A DNA stretch of 63,753 bases, counting the filler, from Rhabdomonas costata (taxonomy: Eukaryota), in assembly GCA_019059605.1 (NCBI GenBank). It is 43 parts of 43 records of this genome, joined end to end, with 100 filler letters (N's around TTAATTAATTAA, not from the genome) between each part and the next. Parts side by side here need not be neighbours in the genome. Positions count along the whole stretch, not along the records: positions 2,973 to 4,358 come from JAHMHO010017502.1; positions 4,459 to 5,845 come from JAHMHO010017503.1; positions 5,946 to 7,330 come from JAHMHO010017504.1; 40 more parts are not named here. One strand, 5' to 3'. The notes beneath the pieces were generated by a model, which ran no database searches, was not told where the DNA came from, and saw only the letters and a program-made list of their open reading frames with translations. The position numbers were made by a program, and so were the translations under genes. Shown piece after piece: positions 3,909-51,881 of the stretch. Position 1 is the first letter of the stretch. Every line of letters starts with the position of its first letter.

Positions 3909-5955
3909 CTGTGGGTGTGGCGGTGCGAGTGCACAGCCGATTCGAAAGGGAGAAAACAGAAGAGATGCGTGGTTGACTTCCGGCCCTTTCAAAACAGATC
4001 AGCACTCGCAGTGTGTTCTTTACACCTTACCACGCATCTTCCTGTGCTGACGGTCAATTTTGTGACTGAACCACGGTGTGCCTTCCACTCAATCTCTGCC
4101 TTGCAAAACAAATTCGGCATTGAGTACGGGGAAACAATCCGTGACCTCAAACTATGCATATTGAAGAAAATCGGAAAGCAGTCCGTATCCAGCATTTACG
4201 ATTTCATGGTGGCACGGATGAATTGGGTTTACAATGTGCCGCATGCTCGATTTCCAAGTGCCCAACGTTCCCAGAAAACGGAGCCCATGACTCGCTCCCA
4301 TTGCCTCGCTGACCCACTAACAACTTGCTGCACCCGTTCCCTTTACAGAGCAAAGTTTNNNNNNNNNNNNNNNNNNNNNNNNNNNNNNNNNNNNNNNNNN
4401 NNTTAATTAATTAANNNNNNNNNNNNNNNNNNNNNNNNNNNNNNNNNNNNNNNNNNNNTTCGTATGTGGTTGGTGATGGTGGTTGGTGTAGAAGGAATTT
4501 CGTAGAGCTTCGTATTAGATAGCAGAAGATTTCGTTGTGTTGGACGAAGAGTTGAGTTGTCTTTGTTGTTGTGTGTTGTTACCTTTCAGGTGGAGCAGAG
4601 AGTACTTTCGCTAACGAGCTACCTTCTTTGTCGTTGGTGTTGTCGCAGCGGGACTTTGAGCAGTGGACAGTGCTGTTGTGGAGGTGGAGTGCTGTGTTGT
4701 TTCTCATGGTGTGAATGCTTTTCGTAAAGAGAAGGGGAAGTTCGTATCGTATAAAGTTAATCTTTCTTGTGGTAAGAATCGTTCAGCTAGAAGAGCTGAG
4801 CCGTTGGAGTGATCGGACGTCGGAGGCAGATGGCATCCTCCGTCCTAGCAGGGGAGAGTGTAACGGCTCAGCATACGTAGGAAGAACGTTTTGTAGTAGA
4901 AATAAAAGAGACAGCTTGGTGAGCCAGACAAGATTTTCGTAGTAGCTTGGAAGCTTGGTTAGTCTCAGAATTTGGTAAGGAGCTCATAGGAGATCGTTTT
5001 AAAGAGCAGAGATCAATTAAGGCTTTGAAGGTGTTCAAGAAATTCGTAGATCAGTGCGAGAGCAGTGGAGAAGCAAGTGTGGAAAGCAGATTTCTCAAAG
5101 GAGATGTTTAAGAAAGAGAGAGTTTTAGGAGCAGAGGCGGTCAAGCTGAAGCTTTGAGCAGAGTGCTGGCAGCGAAGGTGGCGGAAAACAAGAAGGAGAA
5201 GGCGCAGGAGGACGGTGCTGAGGAGAGCCGTTCCGTAGGACGACGTTGTGGTGGACAAGGCCGCAGAGCTGAGCACAAGACGAGTTGGCCGCGCAGTTCT
5301 GGAGAAGTTGAGCGAGAAGGCCGTGGAAAGCAGCCCCGGGAGGACAGGAATGGGGCGGCAAAGTGCAGCAGGCGGCGTGTTGAGGCAGCAAGGCACCGGC
5401 CAGCAGCGCCAGTTGAGGAGAAGTCCTTGGAAAAGCGCAGTGGGACCCCAGTGCAGGAGGGCAAGCTGACGAGAAGAAGCAGAGCGGGACGAGAAGCTGA
5501 AGAAGAACAACCCCGCTAGAGGAGAGGCAGCCCGAAGTCGAGGTCAGCGCAGAGGAAAGGAAGGCATGGCAAAGAAAGAGAAAAGAGAAGAGCAGCCCGA
5601 GCCAAAAAGGACAGAAAAGCCAGAAGCAGAGAGCGAGAGCATATATCAGGAGAGAGGAAAGTGGGACAAAGGAGGCCGAAGCGGAGAGAAAGAGAGGCAG
5701 CGAGAAGCAGGAATAAAAAGGGAGGGAGCAAAAGAGAAGCAAAAGAGCCAGCAGTAGCAGCAGTCAAAAGGCGGAGTTTGAGCAAAAAGACGAGCGAAAG
5801 AGAAGCCAGGAGGCAAAGGGAAGGGCAGCCCGAGCCAAAAAACACNNNNNNNNNNNNNNNNNNNNNNNNNNNNNNNNNNNNNNNNNNNNTTAATTAATTA
5901 ANNNNNNNNNNNNNNNNNNNNNNNNNNNNNNNNNNNNNNNNNNNNGGGGTTTGGG

Positions 5956-6819
5956 TCATATGTCTATGTTTAGGTCTTTTCTAGTAGATGGCATATTAAA
6001 CATAAATTTTTTACTGACCTTTAGCTTTATACCTGGGAAAGTACAGAAAGCCTGTTTGTGCTTAATCAGTTGCACAACACGAAACAAACTTGATTCGTTG
6101 AACATGTCATGAACTTGTATCTGAAACAAAGAATTCCGAATCTGAAACAAAGGATCTCGACTCGAATTAGATTCTTTCTTAAGTTCTTTCACAAATTCTT
6201 TCTCATTTATGCAGTTCTTCAAAGTTCGAAAGTATCTAATCGTATCGTCTGGAATAATCATCTCTTGCTTTGCATTGTTTTTCGACAGATACAATGCATT
6301 ACACATGAAATCAATATTGTCTGATTTCTCGAAGATGATATCAATCTTTATGTAAATCTTGTTGTAACACAACATAAGTTGTGCTCCACCATTTCCAGCA
6401 TATGGTGTCGTTTTCAAGAGATAAATCTTTGTTTTGTCTTCTTGGAATTCCGTGAAGCTTTTAATCGTTTTTGTGCATGCTTCTTCAATCCATTTGTGAG
6501 AACGACCACGTATCGTCATATCATCATCATCTCTGATTTGATTACGTTTGTCAATCAGTTCCTGTGATGCCACGAGATCAATATCATGAGGACAAGTGTC
6601 ATTAATCAGATCACGGATTGACCCACCGAAACAAGTAAATCCATGATTTAGGAACACCGTCATACATTGTATGTATGTTTGTTTTATGTTTATGTTACTC
6701 GTTGAATCAGTATGAACGAGTTTGTACAAGTTTTTGCATGTCATGCATAACTTGAAAAACGACGTAAAGTCCAGACAACTCGAAATCTCAGTGATGAGAT
6801 CAACAGGCAACTTGTTCAT
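5956..6819 (-). CDS. F-box domain fused to a class II (CCA-adding/poly(A) polymerase head-like) nucleotidyltransferase; intronless and AT-rich
   Basis: N-terminal LPVDLITEISSCLDFTSFFKLCMTCKNLYKL fits the F-box pattern; FGGSIRDLINDTCPHDIDL fits GGxxRD...DxD; KIDII supplies the third Asp; DFMCNALY resembles DFTxNA. Confidence 0.85.
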   Translation of the reverse strand: MNKLPVDLITEISSCLDFTSFFKLCMTCKNLYKLVHTDSTSNINIKQTYIQCMTVFLNHGFTCFGGSIRDLINDTCPHDIDLVASQELIDKRNQIRDDDDMTIRGRSHKWIEEACTKTIKSFTEFQEDKTKIYLLKTTPYAGNGGAQLMLCYNKIYIKIDIIFEKSDNIDFMCNALYLSKNNAKQEMIIPDDTIRYFRTLKNCINEKEFVKELKKESNSSRDPLFQIRNSLFQIQVHDMFNESSLFRVVQLIKHKQAFCTFPGIKLKVSKKFMFNMPSTRKDLNIDI

Positions 6820-6905
6820 TTTTCGTATTTTTTAGATCGATGAATCAAGCTTGATTGAATTTTATTTATTATAAGAATATATTGATTTAGTAAAGTATTA
6901 CTTTT

Positions 6906-6913
6906 TCAATTTT
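6906..6913 (-). promoter_or_regulatory. AAAATTGA Mimiviridae-type early promoter motif upstream of the F-box/NTase gene
   Basis: Plus-strand tcaatttt; correct orientation, about 87 nt upstream of the ATG at 6819, in a 160-nt AT-rich divergent intergenic region. Confidence 0.6.
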
Positions 6914-6979
6914 TTAAATATATAAAAAATTATTTTTCGTCATACATATCTTTATTTATTTCCATAATTATGTATAGAG

Positions 6980-7330
6980 ATGTATTTTAAATTAGGTATT
7001 CGATCAAAAAATAATATTAAAAAAATTCATAGACTTCCTGTTGTAAACAAAAAAGATAATAAAAATAATAAAATAGTTGTGTTACCTCCAGAAGATGATT
7101 ATATTTTATTTCGTACTAAATTTCAAAATTATAAACAACTTTATAATAATAAAATACCAAAGATTATATGGTCATATTGGAATGGATCAGAACCGCCAAA
7201 AATTGTAGATTATTGTATTCAAAATTGGAAAATTTTCGCTCCTAATTATGAAATTAATTTTCTTGATGATACAACTATTTTAAAATATATTTCTCCACCC
7301 CCAAATTTTCATAGTTTAACACCAACAAAG
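6980..7330 (+). CDS. Glycosyltransferase, GT32/capsular polysaccharide synthesis-like (5' part, truncated by contig end)
   Basis: KIPKIIWSYWNG...PKIVDYCIQNWKIFAPNYEINFLDD matches the N-terminal signature of DXD-type GT32/Caps_synth proteins. Confidence 0.85.
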
Positions 7331-9367
7331 NNNNNNNNNNNNNNNNNNNNNNNNNNNNNNNNNNNNNNNNNNNNTTAATTAATTAANNNNNNNNNNNNNN
7401 NNNNNNNNNNNNNNNNNNNNNNNNNNNNNNGGGTTGTTGGTTACGCTTCGACTTCGGATAGATCACACACGTTCTACCAAGGAAGATGGCTTATATTAGG
7501 ATTTACGGGGGTTTCGGTGGTCTTGAGTCACGGAGCGGAGCCCTAGATCCAAGATGCTTGGACACAAATACCCTTCTGAAGTAGCATTAAACAAACAAGC
7601 AATGCACACAACTTTGAAACACATGGGAATTGCGAAGCACTAATTGAGCTGCACCTGAAACGCAAAAAAGGTCCAGAGATGTCCACAAAGGTCAACAGAC
7701 AAGAACAAAGAAATAGTTTTTATGATGCTCCCACCTGTGTTGTCGACTCCTTTGCACTTTGCACTTTGCCATTAACTACGTTAGCACTGCATTGTTATAT
7801 ATTAGTCTGACTGTGTATGGAGCCGTATCCGAAGCCGTTTTACTGGGTGGAACCAGTGGAGCCGTATCCGAAACCCAACCTTGGTCGAAGATCGTTGCTG
7901 TACAATTACAAGATCCATTTGGGTGCACATGAGAAGTATGCAAAGGCACTGAGAGGCAGCGACCATCCTCAGCAGTTCCATGGCCTCCCGCTCTGCCAGC
8001 TCCACCAGCTGGCGGTGGGTCTCCTCCTCCGCCACGAGAAAGCCCAGCATCCACCCAATCAAACCCTGTAATTTCACGGAAGCACACACGTACACGCACA
8101 CACACACACTCACCCGTAGGAAAGACGGGGTTAAGCAACAGCAGCAGAAAAAGAAGAAGTGCGCACTGGAGAAAGTTGGAGGGAATTGAGGTTCGGTTAT
8201 GGAGTCCCCCCCCTTGCACCTGTCCAGATGGAACAACATCCCAAAATTTCGTACATTTTGGCGTCCGCTGAGATGGTTTTTACAACAACATACCCCCTCC
8301 CCCAGAGGATAGCGGGCTTGCGTTGTCGTTCTACCATGAGCAAGAGAACTATTCAAGACACACGGTGCCGAAAATTCACACTGGAAAATTCATGCAATCA
8401 TTTTAAAATGGATACATTTCACTCCACCAAACGCGTGGACGAAATCTTCTACTTGCTCGTTTCCGGAGATTGACGCCCTTCATGTTTTCGGCAGTTTGTC
8501 TTGCGCGAGCGGTTGGCGATGCATCCTCGCCCCCGGATTGTGTGGCCCTTTACATTGGACACCTTGCTCAATACGAAGTGCTTCGGCACGGAGGTGGTGC
8601 GTCCGAGCTTTCATTGCAACCACTCTCTCTGCCTTCCAAAAAGACCAGCTCACAGCTTCTTTGCAATTGCATCACCGTTCTCTTCATAGGTAGGCGCCAC
8701 GGGGACTCAGAGGCAGGACCACAACTCTGTTGAAGAGAACGTGCTACCCCGTGGGCCCGCCCACGCTTGATCTCTTCCATCACAGCTTTTCCCTGTAGCA
8801 TGTATTTTCCCATTCGANNNNNNNNNNNNNNNNNNNNNNNNNNNNNNNNNNNNNNNNNNNNTTAATTAATTAANNNNNNNNNNNNNNNNNNNNNNNNNNN
8901 NNNNNNNNNNNNNNNNNGGTGGGGTGGGAAACCCCCCACCCCCACCTCCGGTGAGGTGGGACAGAATATGGGCGCGCACGGCGGGTGGGGTCCAACGAGG
9001 TAACCCCGAGGATTCAAAGACACGGTCGTGGAGTACCCGAAGAAACTCGCAACTGCAGGAACAAGGAAAGAAGGCAGGAAGGCAGAAAGATGCACCCAAT
9101 ATTAGTAGTATTGCACACCCACAAATGCGATCTGTGGGGGGCGGGGGCACTGGTTGGCAGTGGTTGTGCGCCCACCACCCTGTTCACGAATCTCCGGAAA
9201 GCATTGCCACCCGAAGGCCGACGGCTTGTCCTACCCATAGCAATAATGAGCCGACATTCGCACTCTTCAGTTACACAGCCTCTGTCAATGCCAATGGAGA
9301 GAAAAGGGGGCAAGGAACGGGGGCAAGGAACAGGAAAAAGCATAAAGAAGCTCCTCCGTTGTCGTAC

Positions 9368-14572: not shown

Positions 14573-17396
14573 CTGCCAGCACAACAGCATGCCATCACCG
14601 CAAAATAAAACCCCGCAGGAGCACAAAAAAATGTGGGGTACATCAGGTACTCCTAATATCAACGATATACCGATATCGCACGTTTGTAGGCATGAGAGAG
14701 AGGAAGGAAAATCTCAGGAAACCAAACCTGCACTTCATTTGCGCCAAGTATAAGTGCNNNNNNNNNNNNNNNNNNNNNNNNNNNNNNNNNNNNNNNNNNN
14801 NTTAATTAATTAANNNNNNNNNNNNNNNNNNNNNNNNNNNNNNNNNNNNNNNNNNNNGCGTTAGAACTGCTAATTGTCAGGAGATACTCATGAATATTTT
14901 TGGCGGTGGTTGCTCTCAGCGTGGGTGGGGTGCGCAAAGGATGTTAACGCATTGGGACCATGCCCAGGCTGGAGCGGAGTGGGAAGAATGCGGTGGTACA
15001 GATCCACGTATTGACACCTTGACGATGTGGTATTGTTTTCCTTTGAAATGGAGCACGCTAGTGGGAGGGGGGTCATATACAAATACTGAGAAGGAGGACA
15101 AGTGTTTGGATAAAAAGGGCCAAGAAAAACAGTGCAAAACATATACTTACCAAATATGGATGGGGAGATGGAAATCGTGGTGGCATAGGATGGGATCAAA
15201 ATCCTGCAGCACATGCGATAATTTTGAAAATTAAAGAGGAAGCATAGGAGCATCCTCCATCATACCTCGAAGCCATTAGATCAGGCTTCCCTCATCTCCA
15301 ACCACCCCATCAAGCACACATATCAGAGCATGGGCAGAAGCAGCCGCAGAAACCATAGCGGCTGGCTGCCTGTCATTCTCGTGGCGCCTTCAGGCACCAA
15401 CTTCAGGAGCTCGACGACGCGAAGAGCAAGAACAACATCACCACCACCAAACGGCACTCATCAATGACGCCATCCACAACCATGTCGTGGGTCATGGTGC
15501 TCGTGCTCGTACCTGTGCTGGTCGTAGTGATCCTCCGTGGCGTCAAGCCCCATGTGTTTGCGCCTGTTCTGACATAGGTGTGGATATGCTCTACACGCCA
15601 TCCACCGTGCTGCACGACATGATTGTGGCGGTGAGGAGTGGGTCCATGAGCATCATCATCACAACCATGAACGGAATCCGAAAGAAACACAACAAAAACG
15701 CAAAGAATCAAAGGGGAAGCAGGAGGAGCAGGAAAACGTAGCAATTGCGTTGCTGCTTTATTGTAATGCTCCCCTCTTTTCTCGCCAGTAAAGAAATAGT
15801 GGAGCACCTCATCTTTTCGCGTTTCACTGGCGTAATTGTGGTAACGTTTTGCAGTTTTTTCAGCTTATTTGCCATGGCAAACGAAAGAATGAAGCACTCC
15901 CAGTATCTGGGACTCGTCCACCTTGAGCAAGGACTGTCTTACATCTTCTCCAACGGACCAGAGCGTGAGGAAATCTACGCTATGAATTGCCTTGTCCTGC
16001 ACGCCGTCGTTGAGAATACGGAACTTGAGACAGCCCAATGGACATTCCACGGCCATGCAAACATCCAAAAGGTAAACACCACAGCGAAGAAGTCCACCTC
16101 CAACATGTTGTGGGTGATGGACAGGAAGTGCAATGTCGCAGCCATTTGCATTGACAAAGATCAGTTTGCGTTGCTGCAAAAATGTGCAAGGAGGTCTTTC
16201 AATGCAAATGGCTGCGACATTGCACTTCCTGTCCACCACCACNNNNNNNNNNNNNNNNNNNNNNNNNNNNNNNNNNNNNNNNNNNNTTAATTAATTAANN
16301 NNNNNNNNNNNNNNNNNNNNNNNNNNNNNNNNNNNNNNNNNNGGGTTGTGGGGTCACAAACGGGGTGCCAACAGTAGCAGCGGCACATCGCAGAGGTGGG
16401 GTGCACACAGGATGGACACAGGAGTGAACGATTGTGGCAGCAACATTGGCGCAGAAGCACAAGGGTACAAACAATGCCACGAACAGCGTTGCGTTTACCA
16501 TCGGCAACGGCAAATCGATGACCTGGCGATCTAACGTTGGCGCCTTATTCTGAAAAGCCATTTCAGGTGGCTTTTGTGGCCTGACAAGGGTATTCCCTTT
16601 ATAACTGCATGGCGGCAAGTATGGGAGCGGATGGGTTGCCGTTTCCATAAACACTTTGTTTCACTCTCTAAATGTTTTTAAACAAAAACAAAAATGATTT
16701 CCCTCCCAATCATAAGCAAACAGGCCCTGAGGGATGGCATACGAACGTCCTTGGCGTAAAGCTTGCCGCTGCACAACAACGCAAGACACATGCGGGGGTG
16801 CACAAGGCGGTACACCAGGCGCAGGATACTTCGAAGGAAAGGGCGCGCACCGCACCAAGTCGCCTGGCATCCAATGCCCAAAGAAAGCAAGCCCCCCCAA
16901 AGGCAGCTGAAGCGCCACGGCTTCAGCCACGGAAGAAGAAGAACGAGCGAGAGAGCTCTAAGTGCACAGAGGAACCCCTGGTTTAGAGGCCACAGAATTC
17001 ACACATGTACAGCAAATGCTTCCACAAGGTCATCTACCGGGAGGGGGAGGGGGGCAGACGTTGCTGGAGGGGAAGGAACACCACAAGCACTGCGGGTCAC
17101 CTAAAAGGCTGGCCTGCTGAGCACCTGCCAAACAATATCCGTATACCACGCCCCTGTGCCCCCTACGCATTAGATCTTATCCTGGACAGCTTCCTTGCGC
17201 TAACCGGTAGAACGACCACACACAAACGAAGCAGGGGAAGAATAGTACACTACATGGTGAGAAGAACCGGAAAGAGAGACATTCCGAAACCCCCTTCCCC
17301 TCCCCTCTTTGGGCTCACCACTCTGGACAGTGCCCTACGGCAGCCCCTTCGGGTATGTCTCTCTGCCTGCCTCCCCACACACACCGTGCCTCTCTC

Positions 17397-20697: not shown

Positions 20698-23600
20698 NNN
20701 NNNNNNNNNNNNNNNNNNNNNNNNNNNNNNNNNNNNNNNNNTTAATTAATTAANNNNNNNNNNNNNNNNNNNNNNNNNNNNNNNNNNNNNNNNNNNNGGT
20801 GTTTTGTATGACTGAAACTAATCAGCAAAAAGGGGTTGAAACATCATAGTCACGAAACGAATAGGGAGCAACATCATATTTCAACCCCTTTTTGCTGATT
20901 AGTTTCAGTCATACGAAGCACCCTCTTTAATTGCAGCCTTCCGTCTTCTTTACTCTTTGTTTTTCTGCCTTCTCGGTCCATTCTGGGTCCCAGTTCGCAG
21001 TGTTTAAAGGCCGGGTGCGATGAGAGAGAGAGAAGTCCCCGTTGTAAGCTGACAATGCGGAATTTTTTACGGTTGGTGTATTCATGGTGTTGGTGTGCAG
21101 ATCTGACATCTACCGGAACCTCTCTGTGCTGCGGCAAAGATGTTGGAGGTCCTTCGAGCTTTCGCTGGGGTATTTCGCCGCTGCCTTTGCGTTAGATCGT
21201 TTCTTATCTAACGCTAACAATGTGGTTTGCTCCTTGTTAATTGTATAGCTGAGCCCCATCTTACTTTCGACAGTAGCTCGTCGTTAATCGCCAAGCCAGG
21301 TTCCCGCCTCAGCTTCCTCCACACCGTTTTGGCTGCGCCGCGTGGCGCTGTCCACCGACTCTTCAATTGATCCCCTTCCTCCGAAGGTCAATTTTCACAT
21401 CTACATGTATCAATCCACCTATGCGTACAGCTTCATGGATACCGCTGCCACTTCGATATCCTGTTGTGTGGTGAACTGCGGCTCACAACAGGAGTATCCG
21501 GATCTCTGTAAGCACCCAGGCAGCGCGCGTTGTGTGTCAGCGACTTTCTTTTCATCCATCTTTCGGGTCCTCGCTTTCTGCCTTTCTTCTTTCAGCCCTC
21601 TCTGTCTCCAAAATTTAACAATATATTGTAATATTCCCGAGGTATGCGCTGCTCATTTCCAAAAGCCTTGGCCTGCGTCTTACCTCCGGCACGCTGTCTC
21701 TCTCGCGTGCGGCGATGCAGGCCGTGTGAGGTTCCGCTGGTGGAATGGTGGGGCACCACCTCAGCGGCCCTCGCCCAGATGGATGCACTGCGGGGCGTCG
21801 CCCTTGCCCAGGCCGTCGCCGCGGAGTCCCACACTCGCAGTCAAAACCAGGCTTACACCGCAGGTACCTCTCTACCTTCCCCCCACTTTTTTCCGGTTTC
21901 AAAATTTCCGAGTACAGTAGGGCTCAGCGCAAGGTGCTGCTGGGCGAACGAATGACTCACTCCCTGCCCAGGCGCAACCGGCCGGGGCTGGGCCCCCCGT
22001 GGGACCGGTTTTCCCCCCTTGCCACAACACAGAGAGCGCCCCGGCGGGAATCAGTTCTCAGGGGTTACAGCTTCATACAAATGTCTTCCCATCCTTCGCC
22101 TCTGCAAGCGGAAGTTCAAGCCACGGCAACCTGTCCCACGATAACACCACCAGTTGTTTTTGAGGTGAGTTCCCCAAAAACCNNNNNNNNNNNNNNNNNN
22201 NNNNNNNNNNNNNNNNNNNNNNNNNNTTAATTAATTAANNNNNNNNNNNNNNNNNNNNNNNNNNNNNNNNNNNNNNNNNNNNTACCTCCTGTTTCTTGCA
22301 GCTCCGCCCCAACTCCGAATGGAAGGATGATTCCGAACTCTATCTAAGCAGGGAAAAAAGTCTTGCAAGGCACTTCGCCAGAGTCAAATGCCGGAAGTGA
22401 GATCACAATTTGTAACGCAAGTGCAACTGAATGTAATGTGGCTGCGACTGTTTGTGCACTTGTACATGAAATCCGCCTTCTGTCGTTTTGGGGGTTCTAC
22501 CAGTAGCAACCATCCTCCTCTGTGGCCTCCGAACCTGTGCACCAATCGTGAGGGATCACCCCGGAAATGGGACCACTTACTCCTGCTCAAGTCACTCTTC
22601 ACTGCTTCACTCTTCACTCTCTTCTCGGGTGACTTTCGACGTGGGCCCGGTACTTGGGAGTGCCCCATTTGGACTTTGCAGGCCTTTACATGCTGAGCCT
22701 AAGCCTAAGCCTTCCGCCGGACCGGCTTAGCATTCTTAAGTGAAGCCCACGAGTGATTCATGCTGGCACCGTACCGTGCTGCCCTGGAGACCAATTGGGG
22801 CTTTTGTGCGTTGCTTGTCTGGCAAAAAAAGGGGAGTTCATGTTAGCTTGCACACCGGCAGTGCCCCCAAGTGTGCCAACAGTTTTGTGTGTATACGGGT
22901 GTCTATGCGTTAGCCTGATGGCGGGGGTTTCGTGCAGACCCTTCGCACAGTGGTGCTCGTTTCCGAGAGCACCTTTGAGGGGGCCACCACCACCTCCTCC
23001 TCTCCCGGGGAGCAGGACCCCTGTGTCGGTGGGGAGCCCATCGAGTTCCGGAAGGTTTCCTCCTTCCTTCGGCTCTTGTCACTAATGTCAACGCATCCCT
23101 TTCTTTTTTTTTCAGTCTCCAGGGTGTTCCACTCAATTCCGGGTGGTCTCACCTGGTTCTCTATTTGAACCATGCGCGTTTCCAAGTTGGGCCAAAGATG
23201 ACAGATTGGCTCGGAAAAGAACGCGGATTACGGTAGTCGGTGTCACTGGCGTCCTTCTTAAATCAGGCCACTGGACCAGCAGGAAGGCAGTCGGGAATTT
23301 TAATCCTGTGACTCTCCTAACCCAGTCTTTGACCAGAAGACTGCACCAGAGAAGACGCCGGGTCATATCAAGCAACGCCGCTCAATACACACCACGAAAG
23401 TTTTTCTTTCCCTTCCGCCAATGATGTGAGTACATCAGAGGGCCAGACCATGCTTCCGGCCCAGTGGCACCTCTTGATAGCTCCTGATGTGAAGCAAAGT
23501 CGCGAGAACAAAAGCGACTCAGGGAGTGGAGGGCTCGCAAAAGACATGACCACTCCGAAAACCTTCTGGTCATGGCACTACCATATTGTTTCTGCCCAAA

Positions 23601-23767
23601 AAAAAACTTTGTGACCTCAGCGTATGTTTTTTTTTGGGCAGAAACAATATGGTAGTGCCACAACCACNNNNNNNNNNNNNNNNNNNNNNNNNNNNNNNNN
23701 NNNNNNNNNNNTTAATTAATTAANNNNNNNNNNNNNNNNNNNNNNNNNNNNNNNNNNNNNNNNNNNN

Positions 23768-27500: not shown

Positions 27501-30158
27501 GAATTATCTCAGAAAAACAAGGGTCTCCTTTTGAACTTCGTGTGCATGCCTGTGCTGCGTATGGGAGGCATCGAATAACACGACAGCAACATGAATAACA
27601 CAAGTGCAGTGACCGTGAGGTGGAGAGCAGCCACCCGCTGTGGGAGCGAAGGAGGAGCGGTCGGCAAGGGTGGTGCCGTCGGGGAACTTCCCAGTGTCCG
27701 GGTCCAGCAGGAGCTCTGGAGCACGGCTGAAGACCCGGGTGGCGGTGGGCAAGCCCCGAGTCCGGGAGTACCACGACGGGAAGGACAGGCTGCGGTGCTG
27801 GTCCGTCGGGGCGTCAGCGTCGACCGGAGCGGGAGGGTCTGTGCGAGAGGAACGCCACAACCTCTGCAAGTGAGGCAATTGCGCCGGTAATGTTTGATAG
27901 CAGGGCATTTCTCACACGTCACACATCAAAGAGCAAATATGTGCGAGTGGTCGTGAGACCGCGAGGCAATGGAGCCTAAAAGCACCACACACACACACAC
28001 ACACACACAACTGTGACTGTGGCATAGAGAGCAGATCGAGTCGTGCGGTTTAGGATCCTTTTCTGGGCGCCCAATCCCAATCCAATTCCAATCCGAGTTC
28101 ATTCATCCTCCACACAACCCCCNNNNNNNNNNNNNNNNNNNNNNNNNNNNNNNNNNNNNNNNNNNNTTAATTAATTAANNNNNNNNNNNNNNNNNNNNNN
28201 NNNNNNNNNNNNNNNNNNNNNNGTGGTGTGGGTGTGGAATTGGTCAGCCTGCCTCTACTGGCTCTGAGGTGGCAGAAAAAGTGAGCCCATAAAAACTAAA
28301 TGCAGCTGAAGGACAGAAGCGATGTCTTCCTACCCGAAGTAAAGTAAAGGCGATAGAGTGGACCCGTGGAAAAGTTCTTTCCTGGTTCTTTCCTCCTCAG
28401 CCTTCACGCGACACTGCAAGCCACAGCCGCAGCAGGGGCCCCGCTCGTCCTCACGGGGTGAGCTGATTGGCTCGCACAGTGGATCCCTACGTCGTGCCGC
28501 TGGAACTGGGCCCTGCCCCCAAGCTCAAGGAAGCCATGCCTGAGGCAACCTCACGGCCTTCCAGCAAGTCCAGCACCTTGATGGAAGAAGAGCAGCCATG
28601 CGAGTCAGCGTTCTCCCGTTGAACACTAGTCCGACGCATTTCTAGGGGGGTGGGGTTAATAGGTTTACAGCGTTGGGTGTTAGATGGAGTACCGTTGTTA
28701 AACCATTCAAAGCAACAAAAATCAGGTACGAAACCAGGCTGGGGAGTGCGGGTGAGATTTGCACGGATGCGTCCTGATTGGGCTCTTTTCCGATTGTAGA
28801 GTCTGATACAAAAAGGGCTAAAGAGCTATCAGGCTTGCTGAGCTTTATAATGACCCCAGGCCTGCTTGGCTTCGCCCTCTTCAGTTTTTTGTTTCATAAT
28901 AACATAAAAAACTTCAAATAAACCTCTGCCAATAAAAAAGGTCGCATGTGCAGTGCTGCCGGCGTCCAAAAGAAAGAATTCTCCTTTTCCCACTTTACTA
29001 AACACAGCTAGCGTTCAGTTTACGAGCACATAGCAAAAGGGGGGAAATTACATCGCTTCCAGAAGAAACATCTGCAGAATTCGGTGTGCATATTCCCATT
29101 GATGAGGATGATTGCGCGGCATCGGGTCTGCGAGGGAGGGGGGAGTTATCGCACTATCCGTTCTGGGACAAACGGAAACCACGTGAGTTGCAGTGCTCAG
29201 GATATATATCATCCTCGGCAGGCAAAAGCAGCAACTATTGCTATCGCATTCTCTCCCTCTCTCTCTGTGTGATCGGGAGAGGGTACCGGAAAAATCTCAA
29301 TAACAGAATTACGAGCCCTAGCAGTATTTCCACCTCGGTTCGGTTAGGAGACGGGGAAGGGGAGGGGGAGTGCGCTTGAAACCGACGCAATGAAATTCGC
29401 ATGAATGAAACCCATGAGACACGGGCAGGGTAACATCCGCTTTGAGAGCGGTAGGCAACACTACTAATACCTGCCACGTCTAAACTCGGAGCGAGGTGTC
29501 TGCATAATCAAACACAGAAAGAACCACTCAAAAGGTTAACCTCGACGATCCGGCTTCCCCTTGTTTTCCCCATATTTCCTCCAGTAAGCGAGAAAGAACC
29601 CAACCCNNNNNNNNNNNNNNNNNNNNNNNNNNNNNNNNNNNNNNNNNNNNTTAATTAATTAANNNNNNNNNNNNNNNNNNNNNNNNNNNNNNNNNNNNNN
29701 NNNNNNTGTTTTGGGGATCAATTGCATTATGGAGAATCCCCACCCCCGTATACGGTGTATTTTACACCGCCACGCGAGGTCTCACCCGTGCGCAAATGCA
29801 CGCCTTCGTCTTTTGTCATGTTCTGACAGGTGGACGAGACGCTCACCCTGTGGGGTGTAAAATACACCGTATACGGGGGTGGGGATTCTCCATAATGCAA
29901 TTGATCCGCAAAATACACCATCGCCATTTCTTTTTAACGAGTCATCTTGTGACGCCGTCCTACACATTACGGGTGCTAGCAATGCACTGGGGACAAAAAC
30001 GATACTGAAAAGACAGCGTCTTGATAGATAACCCGGCGCAGAGGTGGACGGCCGGAATGAAGGAGAGGCGAACGTTCCGAAGACACAACCGCAACGCAGT
30101 CAAAGGGGCGCCACGTCCAGAATGGGGCTTGTTGAAGGAAAAAGCATGAGGGGTGGGC

Positions 30159-30602
30159 TCAATGACGTACACGCCTCCACACAGCCCACACGGAGCCCAG
30201 CACCACAACCCCGGAAAGGACCGTGCCAAGAACAAGCTTCCTTATCTGCAAGACCACCATCTCTTGGTATCTGTCGACAATATTGACTACCATGCCACTT
30301 TTCCCGCAGGGCTCGTCGTCGTCGTCCGGAACAAATGGCTGCTCAAAGCGGCACGGAATCGTGGCGGGCATCCCTCGCTGAAGATAGCTCTGTGCCAGGT
30401 GGGAGGTCCGCCCAGAGCATACCTTCTCTGGGAGTGCCCGAAGGTGGTTCAGACCGGTGTTGCACGAGAGCGCCCAGTTGAATTGCTTGGGATGGTTCGC
30501 CCAGTGGCGCTGGTTGAAGTGCTGTACTAGCTCCTGCACAAGGGTGGTGTTCTCCGTGGCGAGATTGTGCCGCTCCTCGGGATCTTCCCAGACATTGAAA
30601 AC
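30159..30602 (-). CDS. Arylsulfatase-family protein, C-terminal part with a terminal TM anchor
   Basis: VFNVWEDPEERHNLATENTTLVQEL fits the sulfatase C-terminal motif (LFNLxxDPxExxNLA); the frame ends in LVLGTVLSGVVVLGSVWAVWRRVRH-TGA. Confidence 0.7.
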   Translation of the reverse strand, partial: VFNVWEDPEERHNLATENTTLVQELVQHFNQRHWANHPKQFNWALSCNTGLNHLRALPEKVCSGRTSHLAQSYLQRGMPATIPCRFEQPFVPDDDDEPCGKSGMVVNIVDRYQEMVVLQIRKLVLGTVLSGVVVLGSVWAVWRRVRH

Positions 30603-38885: not shown

Positions 38886-39719
38886 TCAGGTGAAATTTCT
38901 GGTCGCATCCATCACACCACCAGTTGCACCGTTGCATAATGGGGAGGGTTTTAGGAGTTGAAGGGGTATGGGTGGATGGACCGACTAAATTGATTGGATT
39001 TGGTGGTGAAGGGGGTGCATGGAACATCCGAATGCAAATACCTCTGTCCACCAGGTCAGATGCTTCAAAAAACCCAAGCCCAGCCATCGATTTTCGTGGC
39101 TCTGCAAAGTTTTGTCGCTTGCGGTTTGCGTAGTATCCTACCTTTTTCTTCCTGATGACGATTACCCAAACCACAGGTGATCACCTCATGAAGTCAGCTG
39201 ATCGTTGTATTTTATGCTCTATTTTTTTTAAAGAAATTGTTTTAATCAATTCCAAAATTCTGCACTGCGCACAAAGGTTCGGTCATCATCAAACCGACCG
39301 TTTTTACAAGAAGAAGAGAAAATGAAGCAAATGTGTCCGACTCTAACCTAGAGAGGTTATGAGGAAGGTCGCGGTGAGTGAGTGAATGAGTACGTGCGTG
39401 CGTGCGTGAAGTTGGGTGGGTTGCCTGCGCCCCCTTTCGCAGGGATATAGGAAGGTGTTTTTTGCACCCACATTGTGGGTGCTGGGAAAGAAGCGGCACA
39501 ACATTAAGGAAAGCTCCACCAAAGGGCACGGGTGGGTACCGGCCTCCTGCGCAGCGTTTTGGGAGACCCACTGTATATACCTGCTTGGGCCCTCTACTTT
39601 TCCCCACAAACCCAGGTCTTTTTCAGGTCACACTCAGAGCTGCACAACTCCCAAATAATGTATGTGTTGTAAAAAAAAGCCGCCACTCCAAGAGCTAGCA
39701 TGTTCCTTTCACATTTCAG

Positions 39720-45196: not shown

Positions 45197-45214
45197 GTGG
45201 GAAGTACGGACGCG

Positions 45215-45216
<2 letters not shown>

Positions 45217-45248
<32 letters not shown>

Positions 45249-45257: not shown

Positions 45258-46183
45258 TGGTGTGCGGACGATATTTTTCATGCGGTTGTGTGCAGTCATT
45301 GATTCGTGCATTCAGTTTTTCCCTTCCCCTCCCCTTCATACTTCACTCTCCGCCTTCCAAAGGTTACGTCCATCTGTGTTATCACTTTGCCCAGCTGGTA
45401 GAGGTTGCGTTGACAGGAAATCCTCTTTTGCCGTTCTGGGGTGTCTTCCTGCAGCACCGCACCGAGCTATCCTCCTCTGCGGGTCTTCGGACCCACACCA
45501 ATCATCAGGAGTCACGCCGGGAATGGGGATAGGACCACTTTCTTCTGCTGAAGTCTTCACCCATTTTGCTGGGCGATTTCCGACTTGGGCCCACTGGGTA
45601 CCATAACTTGAGCTTGACGGCTGGTTGGGGCCGATACTTTGTGGGATGGTGGTACACTTCTGAGTTGAGTTGTTTTTTTTGGCGGCTTCCTGAAATGTGG
45701 TATCTCTTTGCACAGTGCCTATCCTCCCATCCTCTCCCAATGACTTCGGTTCCACCCCCACACCCCCTGATACTTTGCATTTTCTCCTCTCAGCCTTTGC
45801 ACCCACGTGTAATTTATTGTATCGTTTTTTGCCGGAAAAATAGGCACCCGCTTGTGGGGGCATGCCCTGTTGGAACCCATCCTGTACTGAAAGCACGTAA
45901 AGAAAGAGGGACATTGAGCGTTTCTGACATTTCACCAAACAANNNNNNNNNNNNNNNNNNNNNNNNNNNNNNNNNNNNNNNNNNNNTTAATTAATTAANN
46001 NNNNNNNNNNNNNNNNNNNNNNNNNNNNNNNNNNNNNNNNNNGTGGTGTTAATAAAGTTATGATTATTTAATTATATATCTTAAATAATGTTTGAGATAT
46101 ATAAGTAAAGCGATCTGCTCAGCGGAGTGCTGCTGAGCAGATCGCTCTACTTATATATCTCAAACATTATTTAAGATATATAA

Positions 46184-46504
46184 TTAAATAATCATAACTT
46201 TATTAACACCACATGCAAGTTTATTTAATAGCCAATAAAATGGATACATTATTAAATAGTAAATAAAGAATGTAGATATAAATCCAATTTTCCATGTAAA
46301 ATCAGGTTCAGGTGCATTACATCCAGCAGTTGTAAATACACGACGAAATCTATCATAATAATTTATTTTATTTTTTCTTACATAAAAAAAATAAATAGGT
46401 ACAAATAGACTTATATTAAATGGATGTATGGGAACAAATGGCATCATTGCCGGTGGGAGAAAACAAAATAATTTAGCAAGATATTTAACTGCTTTCGTTG
46501 CCAT
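46184..46504 (-). CDS. Small hydrophobic protein of unknown function (106 aa), intronless and AT-rich
   Basis: Complete ORF with two hydrophobic stretches, divergent from the 46593 ORF across 88 nt. Confidence 0.65.
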   Translation of the reverse strand: MATKAVKYLAKLFCFLPPAMMPFVPIHPFNISLFVPIYFFYVRKNKINYYDRFRRVFTTAGCNAPEPDFTWKIGFISTFFIYYLIMYPFYWLLNKLACGVNKVMII

Positions 46505-46529
46505 TATTATACTACTATAACAAGTAAAA

Positions 46530-46537
46530 AAAATTGA
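46530..46537 (+). promoter_or_regulatory. AAAATTGA Mimiviridae-type early promoter motif
   Basis: Exact octamer, correct orientation, about 55 nt upstream of the ATG at 46593. Confidence 0.65.
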
Positions 46538-46592
46538 AAATTATATTATTTATAATTATATAAATAATTACAAAACAGAATAAACTATTAAA

Positions 46593-47427
46593 ATGTCTCT
46601 TGAATCACATATGCAATATCATAATGCATACAAAAAAGATATTGTCGGATTTATCTGTCGTGATTTCTTCAATAAAGAATGTACATGCGCATATCATCCA
46701 TATACAAAGATATATTTTAATATTGCATCTCTAGATGATATGAATACAATTGAAAAATATTATAAAAATAAACATGAAATTGAAATTTGTGACAAATGTT
46801 TTGACTGTAATGACATGAATTGTATAAAAATTCATTTGTATGATGAATCTATAGCTTGTCGTTCTTTTATTATTATAGATGATATTAATGATGTTGAAAT
46901 TGTAAAGAAATATGCACATTGGATGGATGTAAATGAAACGAAACCAATTATAAATTTCTGTCTTGATAAAACAAAAACTGTACAATGTACTTCAAATGTT
47001 TTTTTTAAAGAAAATACATGTGTATCATATATCGATGAATACAATATGTATAACATTATTAAAAAGAAAATTATAAGTCATATTGAAAAAAATAAATCTG
47101 AACTAAAAACACAAACAGCTATCAACAATACAAAACAAGAAATACAATCAAAAAATGATGATAAATCAAAAGATAGTGATGATAAATCATCAAAAGATAG
47201 TGATGATAAATCATCACAAGATAATATTTTAGATGATGAAACATCTAAAAATACTGAATTATCATTATCACATGATCCATATATGTTGAATATTGAAGAC
47301 AGAGATAATATTGATAGATATATGGATACAATGTGGTTAATTAATGATAGAAATGTCATTGCACGACAAATTTTGAATTATGAATATACTTATCAACCAG
47401 AATTTATAGAACAAAGTTTAATGTCAG
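46593..47427 (+). CDS. Cys/His-rich protein of unknown function with a D/K/S repeat (3' truncated), intronless and AT-rich
   Basis: 278 open codons in very AT-rich DNA; clusters CRDFFNKECTCAYH and CDKCFDCNDMNCIKIH; three copies of GATGATAAATCA(TCA)AAAGATAGT near 47156-47224. Confidence 0.8.
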
Positions 47428-50058: not shown

Positions 50059-50497
50059 CTATATTTTTTTTTCGTTTTATGACGGGGAGAAGAGCACGGA
50101 GGCCGGACCACAGCTGTCCTAGGGATGTCTTTGGCGTGGTTGACAACGCGCACTGAAACAAACATGAGCTTCCCAGGAAAAAATCGACACCGCGAATCTA
50201 CGAGTTTAGCGAGCTCGAGCTCAAAGGAAGGTACAGCGTCTAAGTCAGCTTCAGCCAACCGTAACCAGAACAAAGGTACAAAGGTCACGCTCAACCACAT
50301 TTTTTAAACTAGAGGCGGGGGGACCTGGACAAACGGACAGTGCCTGTCTCTCGCTCCTCAACCCCCTCCCTCCGCGTCCACCCTTTTCTGCCCTCTNNNN
50401 NNNNNNNNNNNNNNNNNNNNNNNNNNNNNNNNNNNNNNNNTTAATTAATTAANNNNNNNNNNNNNNNNNNNNNNNNNNNNNNNNNNNNNNNNNNNNT

Positions 50498-51881
50498 GGA
50501 TTATATGCACATAGTCCAATCATGAAAACTGATAATTTCAATGTTACGTCAATTATAACATTATTACAATGTTTCTATCCAATTATAAGTCTATATTCCG
50601 ACATAGCTTTTATAAATATTAGTGTTGATAATATATGGTCGGTATATTATAATGCAAATTATGATATTTATTTACATCAAAATAAGAAAACTATATATAT
50701 ATATACAGTACATATAATACGGAAAATTATAACATATCTAATTATTATTTAGTACATCCTGAAACAGGAGAAATATTTGATAAAGTATATACATATGAAT
50801 GTATATTTGATAAATGTAATATAACTACATATTTATATAATATAAATTTATTACATAAAATAAAACCGGATAATATTACTAAAAATACAGTTGAAATTTT
50901 TAATAGAAACACAAATAATATATCAGTAAGAATAAATTATAATTTATATAACACATATACTACATTATCAATGATATATAATAATAATATAATACTATGT
51001 AATGGTGTTAATTATACAGAATCATCATCATTCAATATCATTGCTGATAATTTTAATTTTAGTACAAATTTGATAAATACATGGCTAAAAGATAATTACA
51101 ATACAAAAAAATATTTTAGAAATGAAGTTACATTTGATAATTTGTATTTATCAATAAGTACATATGATGCAAAAACAAAAATATATTTTAATATATTATA
51201 CAGTTATTATGATGTTCAAAATGATATGTATAATTTTAAATTAACGACAAATAATATTATTGATACAAGTAATAAAAAATCATTAATTATATTAATTGTA
51301 ACAATTGTAATTACATGTGTATTATCAATATTAATAATTTATACATTGTCTACTTCATTATACAAATTAGCAAATAATATAAACATGATAGCTTTATTAC
51401 AATACGATGATCATAATTATAAACAATATCATTCGTTTTTTTCTGAATTTTCAGCTTGTGAAACATCTTTAAAAAGATTAGAACGTGGAACACGAGCATT
51501 TAGTATGTATATACCTTTACAAATAGTTAGATTTATGTTAGCAGGTACAATAGATACGTCATATGTAATGATAAATACAAGAACAACAATAATGTTTTCT
51601 GATATTATTGGATATACAACATTATGTGAGAAAATAGAATTACATGATTTAATGATTATGACAAATAAATATTTTGATATTATGTGTAAAATAATAAATG
51701 ATTCAAAAGGAATTATAGACAAATTTATAGGTGATTGTATTATGGTAATGTGGAATCCAGTATTTGTTTCAAATCAAGAAGTTGCTTCTTGTAATGTTGC
51801 ATTACAAATGCAATATGATATGCTTAATTTAAACAATGAATTTACAAAAATAGATTTACCGAATTTTAAATTTAAAATTGG
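50498..51881 (+). CDS. Receptor-type class III adenylyl cyclase (extracellular region, TM, HAMP-like linker, catalytic domain); intronless, extremely AT-rich, one frameshift at a (TA)n run near 50692-50705
   Basis: TM LIILIVTIVITCVLSILIIYTL; AFSMYIP; TIMFSDIIGYTTLCE; IDKFIGDCIMVMWNP has the second metal Asp and the ATP-selecting Lys. The contig is open end to end if one TA unit is removed. Confidence 0.9.

What the first reader, a model, noticed from the sequence alone, without database searches (positions are those of the whole stretch)
5946..7330. Giant-virus-like contig among euglenid-like host DNA
Seen: AT-rich, intronless, two divergent genes separated by 160 nt, with AAAATTGA oriented toward one of them. 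The genes are a eukaryote-type F-box protein and a bacterial-type GT32. Known: this gene mix and this promoter octamer are typical of Mimiviridae. Inference: 3 of 43 contigs share this style, so a substantial viral genome may be present in the dataset, either infecting or endogenised. Giant viruses of euglenids are poorly described.
Basis: partly seen in the sequence, partly recalled or inferred. Interest (0 to 1): 0.75.

Follow-up and report, generated by a model that had tools for sequence, protein, structure and literature searches.

The report
Giant-virus-like fragment among protist contigs
A 1.4-kb AT-rich contig carrying two tightly packed genes and a giant-virus early-promoter motif most likely comes from a giant virus (free or integrated) sampled with a protist, but it cannot be tied to the mimivirus family, and integrated giant viruses have already been reported in Euglena.

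Summary
The window is 43 contigs of about 1,385 bp. Three are AT-rich (30, 24 and 20% GC); the other 40 are 49-58% GC. Contig 5946-7330 carries a complete 287-aa ORF with an F-box and a PolyA_pol-head-like nucleotidyltransferase. A Caps_synth glycosyltransferase fragment runs divergently, 160 nt away. AAAATTGA lies 86 nt upstream of the F-box gene.

I also found the octamer 55 nt upstream of an ORF on the second AT-rich contig. Both intergenic regions in the AT-rich contigs therefore hold it (joint chance about 0.001). A protein-language-model search placed the F-box protein nearest three clusters made up only of Nucleocytoviricota proteins.

A giant-virus origin is the best reading (about 0.7) but is not proven:
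- There is no hallmark gene in the 4.1 kb of AT-rich sequence.
- No whole assembly was available.
- Alignment-based searches found only four unnamed metagenomic relatives.

The Mimiviridae assignment is not supported. The octamer is also the early promoter of pacmanvirus (44% of its genes) and is reported in ASFV and an iridovirus. Euglena gracilis is already reported to hold eight Asfuvirales-like endogenous giant-virus elements of 25-37% GC. I could not test host identity or integration. Interest is moderate.

The parts
5946..7330 (.). AT-rich contig 5 (1385 bp, 30.1% GC), 88% coding. Its first 11 bases, GGGGTTTGGGT, are G/T only, like the heads of most contigs in the window, so they probably derive from an amplification primer.
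5956..6819 (-). Complete 287-aa ORF: an F-box fused to a PolyA_pol-head / class-II-like nucleotidyltransferase. GC3 is 0.39, against 0.09 for the neighbouring gene.
6709..6813 (-). F-box domain, residues 3-37 (LPxDLxxEIxxxL...).
   Evidence: PF00646, E 9.2e-7, 29 bits against a cut-off of 20.5
6283..6627 (-). Nucleotidyltransferase head-like domain, residues 65-179. It holds G65-G66-S67...D79-I-D81, a later conserved Asp in YIKID, and DFMCNALY.
   Evidence: PF01743, 18.6 bits, below the cut-off of 23; profile against PDB CCA-adding enzymes, E 0.006; alignments
6820..6979 (.). 160-nt divergent intergenic region, 16.9% GC.
6906..6913 (-). AAAATTGA, within AAAAAATTGAAAA, at positions -94 to -87 from the ATG of the F-box gene. 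Putative early promoter.
6980..7330 (+). N-terminal 117 aa of a Caps_synth (GT32-like) glycosyltransferase, cut by the contig end before any DXD motif. GC3 is 0.09.
46043..47427 (.). AT-rich contig 32 (24.0% GC) with two divergent ORFs 88 nt apart. Its first 81 bases are a fold-back copy of 46132-46212 (artefact).
46530..46537 (+). Second AAAATTGA, within AAAAAAAATTGAAAA, at positions -63 to -56 from the ATG at 46593.
46593..47427 (+). ORF of 278+ aa, Cys/His-rich at the N-terminus with an acidic Ser/Asp/Lys repeat. No family and no relatives found.
46184..46504 (-). 106-aa hydrophobic ORF with no family.
50497..51881 (+). AT-rich contig 35 (20.2% GC), coding throughout. It encodes one long gene ending in a class III adenylate/guanylate cyclase domain. 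The reading frame changes somewhere in 50686-50749, which holds a (TA)7 run at 50692-50705.

Best explanation
Contig 5946-7330, and probably the two other AT-rich contigs, is a fragment of a nucleocytovirus (giant virus) genome. It was amplified from the same DNA sample as a GC-normal, repeat-rich eukaryote. Whether the virus is free or integrated is unresolved. The 160-nt spacer is a bidirectional promoter region. Its AAAATTGA element is the early-gene promoter used by several giant-virus lineages (Imitervirales, pacmanvirus-like Asfuvirales, some iridoviruses). It is positioned to drive early transcription of a fusion protein. By inference, the N-terminal F-box of this protein docks on the host SKP1-cullin ubiquitin ligase. 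Also by inference, its nucleotidyltransferase module, which keeps the GGS...DxD catalytic signature, acts as an enzyme or as the substrate-selecting part. The divergent gene is a Caps_synth/GT32-like glycosyltransferase of the kind giant viruses use for their own glycans. Shown: composition, gene layout, domains and motif positions. Inferred: viral origin, promoter activity, SCF docking and enzyme activity. The viral order is open. Asfuvirales is at least as likely as Mimiviridae if the host is a euglenid.
For: (1) GC is bimodal: 3 contigs at 20-30% and 40 at 49-58%, with no chimeric contig. (2) Gene packing: the AT-rich contigs are 84-100% coding (my count from the ORF coordinates), with divergent spacers of 160 and 88 nt. 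Of the 10 longest open frames in the GC-normal contigs, 0 reached a Pfam cut-off; 1 had a sub-threshold hit. (3) AAAATTGA is present in 2 of 2 intergenic regions of the AT-rich contigs, within 100 nt of an ATG and pointing at it. Chance is 0.053 x 0.026 = 0.0014 by shuffling, or 0.081 x 0.013 by a Markov-1 model. The two sites share the 13-mer AAAAAATTGAAAA. (4) The octamer precedes 45% of mimivirus genes (PMC5294985) and 44% of pacmanvirus genes (PMC11788076). (5) The three best clusters in the ESM Atlas for the F-box protein score 0.95, 0.94 and 0.93. All are 100% viruses, most commonly Nucleocytoviricota, and 12-29% of their members carry Gad2. (6) Four of the five intact ORFs share an extreme GC3 of 0.09-0.13, which fits one source. 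(7) No relative was found in 185,579 prokaryote species genomes or in phage records. (8) There is a precedent: E. gracilis elements of 25-37% GC in a 51% GC genome with over 90% coding density (PMC12455990).
Against: No hallmark gene (capsid, PolB, A32, VLTF3, RNA polymerase) is among the 5 ORFs scanned, and only 4.1 kb was available. No alignment-based link to any named giant virus was found. Six protein-based scans of IMG/VR gave nothing for five queries and only 3 weak loci (31-52% identity over 45-71 residues) of 36-46% GC for the glycosyltransferase. Two scans of JGI metagenomes found nothing. HMMER against 1.84 billion cluster representatives gave 2 hits, the best E 4.4e-6, both unnamed. 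The Atlas gives no alignment; it shared 156 of 256 features, below the 170 that typifies same-family hits. The first octamer was the reason the finding was picked, so only the second site is an independent test (p about 0.013-0.026). F-box proteins and receptor-type cyclases are typical eukaryote genes, and the cyclase is 39% identical over 85 residues to one on a GC-normal contig. The F-box gene's GC3 (0.39) differs from its neighbour's (0.09).
Confidence: 0.68

Rival explanations
1. The AT-rich contigs are pieces of the Asfuvirales-like giant endogenous viral elements already published for Euglena gracilis, or of a close equivalent in a related euglenid. This is a sub-case of the best explanation. 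It would make the finding already known, with the virus integrated and eroding.
For: The published elements have 25-37% GC in a host of about 51% GC, over 90% coding density, about 50% ORFans, and capsid genes sister to pacmanvirus (PMC12455990). Pacmanvirus uses AAAATTGA before 44% of its genes. The GC-normal contigs here have 49-58% GC. The frame break in the contig-35 gene is compatible with erosion.
Against: Host identity was not tested. I had no tool that could compare the window with that assembly. The paper's main text has 0 occurrences of F-box, glycosyltransferase, cyclase, nucleotidyltransferase or promoter, and its supplements are closed. The published elements make up 1.9 Mb of 2.4 Gb, about 0.08%. 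Here 3 of 43 equal-length contigs (7%) are AT-rich. Two contigs (24% and 20% GC) lie at or below the lowest published element (25.4%).
Confidence: 0.3
2. The AT-rich contigs come from a second, AT-rich eukaryote with a compact genome (a parasite, prey or contaminant such as a microsporidian- or amoeba-like organism), not from a virus.
For: F-box proteins, GT32-like transferases and transmembrane cyclases are ordinary eukaryote genes. No viral hallmark gene and no alignment-level viral relative was found. One Atlas cluster, at rank 6 with score 0.89, is from Rotifera. The sample was amplified with degenerate primers, a setting in which foreign DNA is common.
Against: The octamer is in 2 of 2 spacers at promoter distance (joint chance about 0.001). 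Divergent spacers of 88 and 160 nt are very short for a eukaryote. No intron was found. The three top Atlas clusters are viral only. HMMER against 1.84 billion representatives, which include eukaryote genomes, found no eukaryote-like family.
Confidence: 0.18
3. The AT-rich contigs come from an AT-rich intracellular bacterium that carries eukaryote-like F-box effectors.
For: The Caps_synth family is best known from bacterial capsule and LOS loci (search listing only). The nearest solved cyclases are bacterial class III enzymes. That some intracellular bacteria encode F-box effectors is recalled, not tested.
Against: No relative of either contig-5 protein was found in one genome for each of 185,579 bacterial and archaeal species. 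NCBIfam gave only one weak hit: pcnB at 14 bits against a cut-off of 306. No tRNA or Rfam RNA was found. The nearest language-model neighbours are viral.
Confidence: 0.03

Closest known systems
Giant endogenous viral elements of Euglena gracilis (Asfuvirales; PMC12455990, J Virol 2025)
   Same: AT-rich (25-37% GC) and densely coding DNA that is mostly ORFans, set within or alongside a euglenid genome of about 51% GC. Its relatives, the pacmanviruses, use the AAAATTGA early promoter.
   Different: No sequence comparison was possible. Host identity and integration are untested. Two contigs here are more AT-rich than any published element. AT-rich contigs make up 7% of this sample, against about 0.08% of that genome. 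The paper's main text does not mention the genes seen here.
Mimiviridae / Imitervirales, including the kinetoplastid-infecting Bodo saltans virus (25.3% GC; PMC5871332)
   Same: Low GC, short intergenic regions (157 nt on average in mimivirus), AAAATTGA within 150 nt upstream of 45% of genes, and many F-box, repeat and glycosyltransferase genes. Bodo saltans virus is a Mimiviridae member with a euglenozoan host.
   Different: No hallmark gene or phylogeny ties the contig to this order. The octamer is not specific to it.
Poxvirus and giant-virus F-box proteins (ankyrin/F-box, FNIP/F-box)
   Same: A viral protein carries an F-box predicted to recruit the host SCF ubiquitin ligase.
   Different: Here the F-box is N-terminal and fused to a nucleotidyltransferase-like domain rather than to ankyrin, FNIP or other repeats. 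By alignment, only four unnamed metagenomic proteins are related (P0001-P0004). P0001 and P0003 are full length and align over the whole protein, including the N-terminal region, but no F-box match was listed for them.
Class II nucleotidyltransferases (CCA-adding enzyme / poly(A) polymerase head, PF01743) and phage Gad2 (PF26128)
   Same: A GGxxRDxxxxxxPxDID signature, a downstream acidic residue and a DFxxNAL-like motif. The match to human and bacterial CCA-adding enzymes has E about 0.006.
   Different: The score is below the Pfam cut-off. There is no neck, body or tail domain for tRNA. No Gad2 match appears by hmmscan; Gad2 appears only as a label on 12-29% of the members of the Atlas neighbour clusters.

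Membership tests
Nucleocytoviricota genome fragment | Hallmark genes (major capsid protein, PolB, A32 ATPase, VLTF3, RNA polymerase subunits, D5) on the contig or in the same bin | tested here: not met
   0 of the 5 ORFs on the three AT-rich contigs match a hallmark family. This covers only 4.1 kb. The whole assembly could not be searched.
Nucleocytoviricota genome fragment | Composition distinct from the host, high coding density, no introns | tested here: met
   20-30% GC against 49-58%. The contigs are 84-100% coding with uninterrupted ORFs, apart from one frame break on contig 35.
Nucleocytoviricota genome fragment | A conserved early-promoter motif upstream of a large share of genes | tested here: met
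   AAAATTGA is in 2 of 2 intergenic regions, at -94/-87 and -63/-56, with joint chance about 0.001. The sample is very small.
Nucleocytoviricota genome fragment | Proteins with alignment-level relatives in known giant-virus genomes | tested here: inconclusive
   The Atlas neighbours are viral. IMG/VR scans found no relative for 5 of the 6 queries. The context of the HMMER hits P0001-P0004 could not be fetched.
Mimiviridae / Imitervirales | Phylogenetic placement of hallmark genes in the order | not testable with these tools
   There is no hallmark gene in the window and no assembly is held.
Mimiviridae / Imitervirales | AAAATTGA early promoter | tested here: met
   Present, but shared with pacmanvirus, ASFV and iridoviruses, so it does not discriminate.
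Published Euglena gracilis GEVEs (Asfuvirales) | Sequence identity to the eight published regions; flanked by host chromosome | not testable with these tools
   No tool holds eukaryote genomes. No AT/GC junction lies within any of the 43 contigs.
F-box proteins (PF00646) | Match to the F-box profile above the curated cut-off | tested here: met
   29 bits against 20.5, residues 3-37.
F-box proteins (PF00646) | Binding to SKP1 | not testable with these tools
   No host SKP1 sequence is in hand. No complex job was sent.
PolyA_pol head / class II nucleotidyltransferase (PF01743) | Profile match above the cut-off | tested here: not met
   16.9-18.6 bits against a cut-off of 23. The PDB profile match to CCA-adding enzymes has E 0.006. 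The resemblance is real but sub-threshold.
PolyA_pol head / class II nucleotidyltransferase (PF01743) | Catalytic G[GS]...DxD signature | tested here: met
   G65-G66-S67 and D79-I-D81 are invariant across the window protein, P0001 and P0002. That this is the defining signature is recalled knowledge.
Gad2 (PF26128) | Profile match | tested here: not met
   No PF26128 row appears in hmmscan at E up to 1 or 10. It appears only as a label on the Atlas neighbour clusters.
Caps_synth / GT32-like glycosyltransferase (PF05704) | Profile match above the cut-off | tested here: met
   32.4 bits against 24.5, residues 48-107, profile positions 35-96 of 278.
Caps_synth / GT32-like glycosyltransferase (PF05704) | DXD catalytic motif | not testable with these tools
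   The ORF is cut by the contig end at residue 117.

The most novel reading that the evidence does not exclude
The three AT-rich contigs sample an undescribed giant virus that is replicating in, or heavily endogenised in, a euglenid-like protist. This would explain why 7% of equal-length contigs are AT-rich, against about 0.08% for the published E. gracilis elements. The virus would use the AAAATTGA early promoter to express a previously undescribed effector type: an F-box fused to a catalytically intact nucleotidyltransferase, which would couple host SCF ubiquitin ligase recruitment to nucleotidyl transfer or to recognition of RNA or nucleotides. It would also carry a host-like receptor adenylate cyclase able to rewire host cAMP signalling.
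Probability: 0.25. Interest if true: 0.6.

Novelty: new member of a known kind. Interest (0 to 1): 0.38.

Why it matters
If the full assembly confirms hallmark genes, this would add a giant virus, or a further set of endogenous viral elements, associated with a euglenid-like protist. For that host group only one report of endogenous elements exists (2025), and no isolate is known to me. The F-box-nucleotidyltransferase fusion is nearly an orphan: four relatives were found across the protein searches, which cover billions of sequences. It could be a new way for a virus to engage the host ubiquitin system. As it stands, the finding mostly repeats a known theme on 1.4 kb of sequence without a hallmark gene. 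It also shows that the AAAATTGA octamer should not be read as a Mimiviridae marker.

Tried and rejected
- Whole-assembly search for hallmark genes: no genome is held.
- Word-based homologue searches for both contig-5 proteins found nothing.
- A profile search with A1 found only the P0001 family.
- IMG/VR scans with the F-box protein, A1, P0001, the cyclase and both contig-32 ORFs found nothing.
- The glycosyltransferase gave 3 weak loci, L001-L003. I looked at the ORFs of L001 only; it is tightly packed. Their GC is 36-46%. I did not follow them further.
- Two JGI metagenome scans found nothing.
- Two bacterial and archaeal genome scans found nothing.
- tblastn against phage records: no match.
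- AlphaFold2 on the 3-sequence alignment gave mean pLDDT 37 and pTM 0.31. I sent no fold search, because matches would be meaningless.
- The 5-sequence alignment A2 was too shallow to justify a second structure job.
- The Atlas gave no usable hit for the contig-32 ORF.
- Rfam and tRNA scans of the whole window gave 0 hits, so no RNA marker identifies the host.
- TATATA, the ASFV/pacmanvirus late motif, is present in both spacers but is expected by chance in 39-47% of shuffles. I rejected it as evidence.
- The 172-nt palindrome at the start of contig 32 was considered as a viral hairpin terminus or a mimivirus-type terminator hairpin. I rejected this because 8 of 8 long inverted repeats in the window touch a contig end, 7 of them on GC-normal contigs. 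It is an amplification or assembly artefact.
- Literature: 0 papers hold both Gad2 and Nucleocytoviricota. 0 papers hold both Caps_synth and GT32.
- No complex prediction was sent, because no host SKP1 sequence is available.
Full report
WHAT THE WINDOW IS. The 63,753-base window is not one locus. It is 43 contigs of 1380-1389 bp joined by N/TTAATTAATTAA spacers. GC content is cleanly bimodal. Forty contigs have 49.2-58.4% GC. Three are AT-rich: contig 5 (5946-7330, 30.1%), contig 32 (46043-47427, 24.0%) and contig 35 (50497-51881, 20.2%). In 200-nt windows, no contig joins an AT-rich part to a GC-normal part. No whole genome is held for this window. Everything below therefore rests on the window itself and on public collections.

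- Contig 5 holds a complete 287-aa ORF on the minus strand (5956-6819) and the first 117 codons of a plus-strand ORF (6980 to the contig end). Exactly 160 nt of 16.9% GC lie between them.
- AAAATTGA lies on the minus strand at 6913-6906, pointing at the 287-aa gene. There are 86 nt between the motif and the ATG.
- Pfam confirms an F-box at residues 3-37 (29 bits against a cut-off of 20.5). It also confirms a Caps_synth (PF05704) match for the fragment (32.4 bits against 24.5). That PF05704 maps to CAZy GT32 is my recollection; two literature searches did not document it.

Most of the 'F-box protein' is a nucleotidyltransferase-like domain.
- PolyA_pol head (PF01743) matches residues 65-179 at 18.6 bits, below the cut-off of 23.
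- A profile of the protein with its two nearest relatives matches human and bacterial CCA-adding enzymes in the PDB at E about 0.006, over the stretch GGxVRDLxNGxxPxDID.
- G65-G66-S67 and D79-x-D81 are invariant in the small family. A later Asp (YIKID) and a DFxCNxLY motif are also conserved.
- Reading these as the Pol-beta-type catalytic signature and as class II motif B is recalled knowledge.

IS THE OCTAMER MORE THAN CHANCE? In the window as a whole there are 10 sites against 4.1 expected. Eight of them lie in GC-normal contigs with no AT-rich promoter context. Taken alone, the contig-5 site is weak: 5.3% of composition-matched shuffles of the 160-nt spacer hold the octamer on either strand, and 8.1% do under a first-order Markov model.

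The independent test is contig 32. It also has two divergent ORFs, 88 nt apart at 10.2% GC. It holds AAAATTGA at 46530-46537, pointing at the ORF that starts 55 nt downstream. Chance for that site is 2.6% by shuffling or 1.3% by the Markov model.

Contig 35 has no intergenic region. So 2 of 2 spacers in the AT-rich set carry the motif at promoter distance, with a joint chance of about 0.001. The two sites share the 13-mer AAAAAATTGAAAA. TATATA, the ASFV/pacmanvirus late motif, is also in both spacers. It is expected in 39-47% of shuffles, so I give it no weight.

ORIGIN OF THE AT-RICH CONTIGS: EVIDENCE FOR A GIANT VIRUS.
- The composition is foreign to the other contigs.
- Coding density is 84-100%. 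By contrast, 0 of the 10 longest open frames in the GC-normal contigs reached a Pfam cut-off.
- No intron was found, and the divergent spacers are very short.
- The promoter motif is present in both spacers.
- In the ESM Atlas, the three nearest clusters to the F-box protein score 0.95, 0.94 and 0.93. All are 100% viral, most commonly Nucleocytoviricota, and 12-29% of their members carry Gad2.
- Four of the five intact ORFs share a GC3 of 0.09-0.13, which fits one source.
- An intracellular bacterium is unlikely. There is no relative in one genome for each of 185,579 prokaryote species, only one weak NCBIfam hit, and no phage match.

ORIGIN OF THE AT-RICH CONTIGS: EVIDENCE AGAINST, OR MISSING.
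- None of the five ORFs is a hallmark gene.
- Alignment-based searches found almost nothing. There were no word-based homologues.
- HMMER against 1.84 billion representatives gave 2 hits, the best at E 4.4e-6. Both are unnamed. One lies on a 490-kb metagenome contig that I could not fetch.
- A profile search added two close relatives of those hits.
- IMG/VR gave nothing for five of six queries. For the glycosyltransferase it gave three weak loci of 36-46% GC; I inspected L001 only, and it is tightly packed.
- The Atlas gives no alignment. The 156 shared features are below the level typical of same-family hits.
- The structure model was unusable (pLDDT 37), so I made no fold comparison with viral proteins.

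WHICH VIRUS? Neither is specific.
- Passages of PMC11788076 state that AAAATTGA precedes 44% of pacmanvirus genes. [quoted passage not shown]
- PMC5294985 gives 45% for mimivirus genes and cites the IIV-6 DNApol promoter, which begins with the octamer.
- F-box-like domains and glycosyltransferases are described across the phylum (passages of PMC5753266 and PMC10583209).
- PMC12455990 (abstract plus parts 1-2 of the results section) reports eight giant endogenous viral elements in Euglena gracilis. They are 86-311 kb long, have 25-37% GC in a genome of about 51% GC, are over 90% coding, and about half of their proteins are unannotated. They are placed in Asfuvirales, with capsid genes next to pacmanvirus.

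If the host here is a euglenid, an Asfuvirales-like source is therefore at least as likely as a mimivirus-like one, and the theme is no longer undescribed. Bodo saltans virus (25.3% GC, Mimiviridae, euglenozoan host) keeps the Imitervirales option open.

IS IT THE SAME AS THE PUBLISHED ELEMENTS? I could not compare sequences. Three points argue against a simple identity.
- The published elements are 1.9 Mb of 2.4 Gb, about 0.08%. Here 3 of 43 equal-length contigs (7%) are AT-rich.
- Two contigs lie at or below the lowest published GC.
- The paper's main text has no occurrence of F-box, glycosyltransferase, cyclase, nucleotidyltransferase or promoter. Its supplements were closed.

A replicating virus, a heavier endogenous load or a separate organism would explain the excess. 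So would assembly bias in favour of unique AT-rich DNA. Host identity ('euglenid-like') is untested: Rfam and tRNA scans found nothing, and no tool here names eukaryote sequences.

HOW IT MOST LIKELY WORKS. The 160-nt spacer is a bidirectional promoter region. The AAAATTGA element at -94 to -87 would be read by the virus-encoded transcription machinery early in infection, to express the F-box-nucleotidyltransferase protein. This is inferred from the published behaviour of the motif. The F-box would dock the protein on the host SKP1-cullin ligase. This is inferred from the family; binding was not tested. The nucleotidyltransferase module keeps its catalytic carboxylates. It may modify an RNA or nucleotide substrate, or serve as the substrate-recognition part of the ligase (inferred). 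The divergent Caps_synth-type transferase would add sugars to viral or host glycans. Its catalytic motif lies beyond the contig end.

The F-box gene has a GC3 of 0.39, against 0.09 for its neighbour. This suggests a more recent acquisition or a different history within the same 1.4 kb.

RIVALS.
- (a) The published Euglena elements or close equivalents: a sub-case of the main reading, at about 0.3.
- (b) An AT-rich eukaryote with a compact genome, co-amplified as parasite, prey or contaminant: about 0.18. All the recognisable domains are ordinary eukaryote domains and no hallmark gene was seen. The promoter motif, the very short spacers and the viral Atlas neighbours argue against it.
- (c) An intracellular bacterium: about 0.03.

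VERDICT. The giant-virus reading is plausible and is strengthened by a second promoter site, but it is unproven without hallmark genes. The Mimiviridae label is not supported. The biological theme is already in print for E. gracilis. I rate it a probable new member of a known kind, of moderate interest. The most unusual single item is the F-box-nucleotidyltransferase fusion, which is nearly an orphan in very large protein collections.

Noticed in passing
all 43 contigs, e.g. 5946-5956, 7431-7442, 46043-46050: 31 of 43 contigs begin with 8 bases that are G/T only, and 27 of 43 end with 8 bases that are C/A only (38 of 43 show one or the other). None shows the opposite pattern, and G/T-only 8-mers make up 1.4% of internal positions. 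This orientation-specific pattern looks like remnants of degenerate G/T-rich amplification primers. If so, each contig is roughly one amplicon from a whole-genome-amplified library. The AT-rich contigs 5 and 32 carry the same heads, so they were amplified in the same library as the GC-normal DNA.
   Followed up: partly
46043-46212; also 39375-40003, 56111-56332, 29709-29913, 20798-20922, 16113-16240, 23567-23666, 35649-35848: Eight long inverted repeats (32-127 nt arms, 92-99% complementary) all touch a contig end. They are fold-back artefacts of amplification or assembly, not biology. The one on contig 32 has a GC-rich centre (15-bp stem, 8-nt loop) in otherwise 24% GC DNA. The first 81 bases of that contig are a copied arm and should be ignored.
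   Followed up: partly
50971-51879 (+) and 53893-54357 (+): The cyclase on the 20% GC contig 35 is 39% identical over 85 residues (E 9e-22 pairwise) to a cyclase exon on the GC-normal contig 37, including the stretch before the catalytic domain. This pairwise BLASTP score (76 bits) is higher than the cyclase's best phmmer match to any solved cyclase (50 bits, bacterial photoactivated type). It is compatible with gene exchange between the AT-rich entity and the host lineage.
   Followed up: partly
50497-50970: Contig 35 is open in one frame from its first bases to 50749, and in another frame from 50686 to its end. About 95 codons before the first ATG (50971) carry no stop at 17% GC. So it is one long gene with a frame change within 50686-50749, where a (TA)7 run lies (50692-50705). 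The cause could be a slip in amplification or sequencing, erosion of an endogenous copy, or a short intron.
   Followed up: no
5956-6819 versus 6980-7330: The two neighbouring genes on contig 5 differ sharply in third-position GC: 0.39 for the F-box/nucleotidyltransferase gene and 0.09 for the glycosyltransferase fragment. All ORFs on contigs 32 and 35 are at 0.07-0.13. The F-box gene may have a different or more recent origin.
   Followed up: no
GC-normal contigs, e.g. 59400-60239, 44720-45529, 30162-30890: Of the 10 longest stop-free frames (209-280 aa) in the GC-normal contigs, none reaches a Pfam cut-off; one has a sub-threshold Sulfatase_C hit. Recognisable coding pieces (a kinase-like stretch on contig 2, by eye, and the cyclase on contig 37) are short and flanked by stops. 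This DNA looks like intron-rich or repeat-rich eukaryote genome rather than transcripts.
   Followed up: partly
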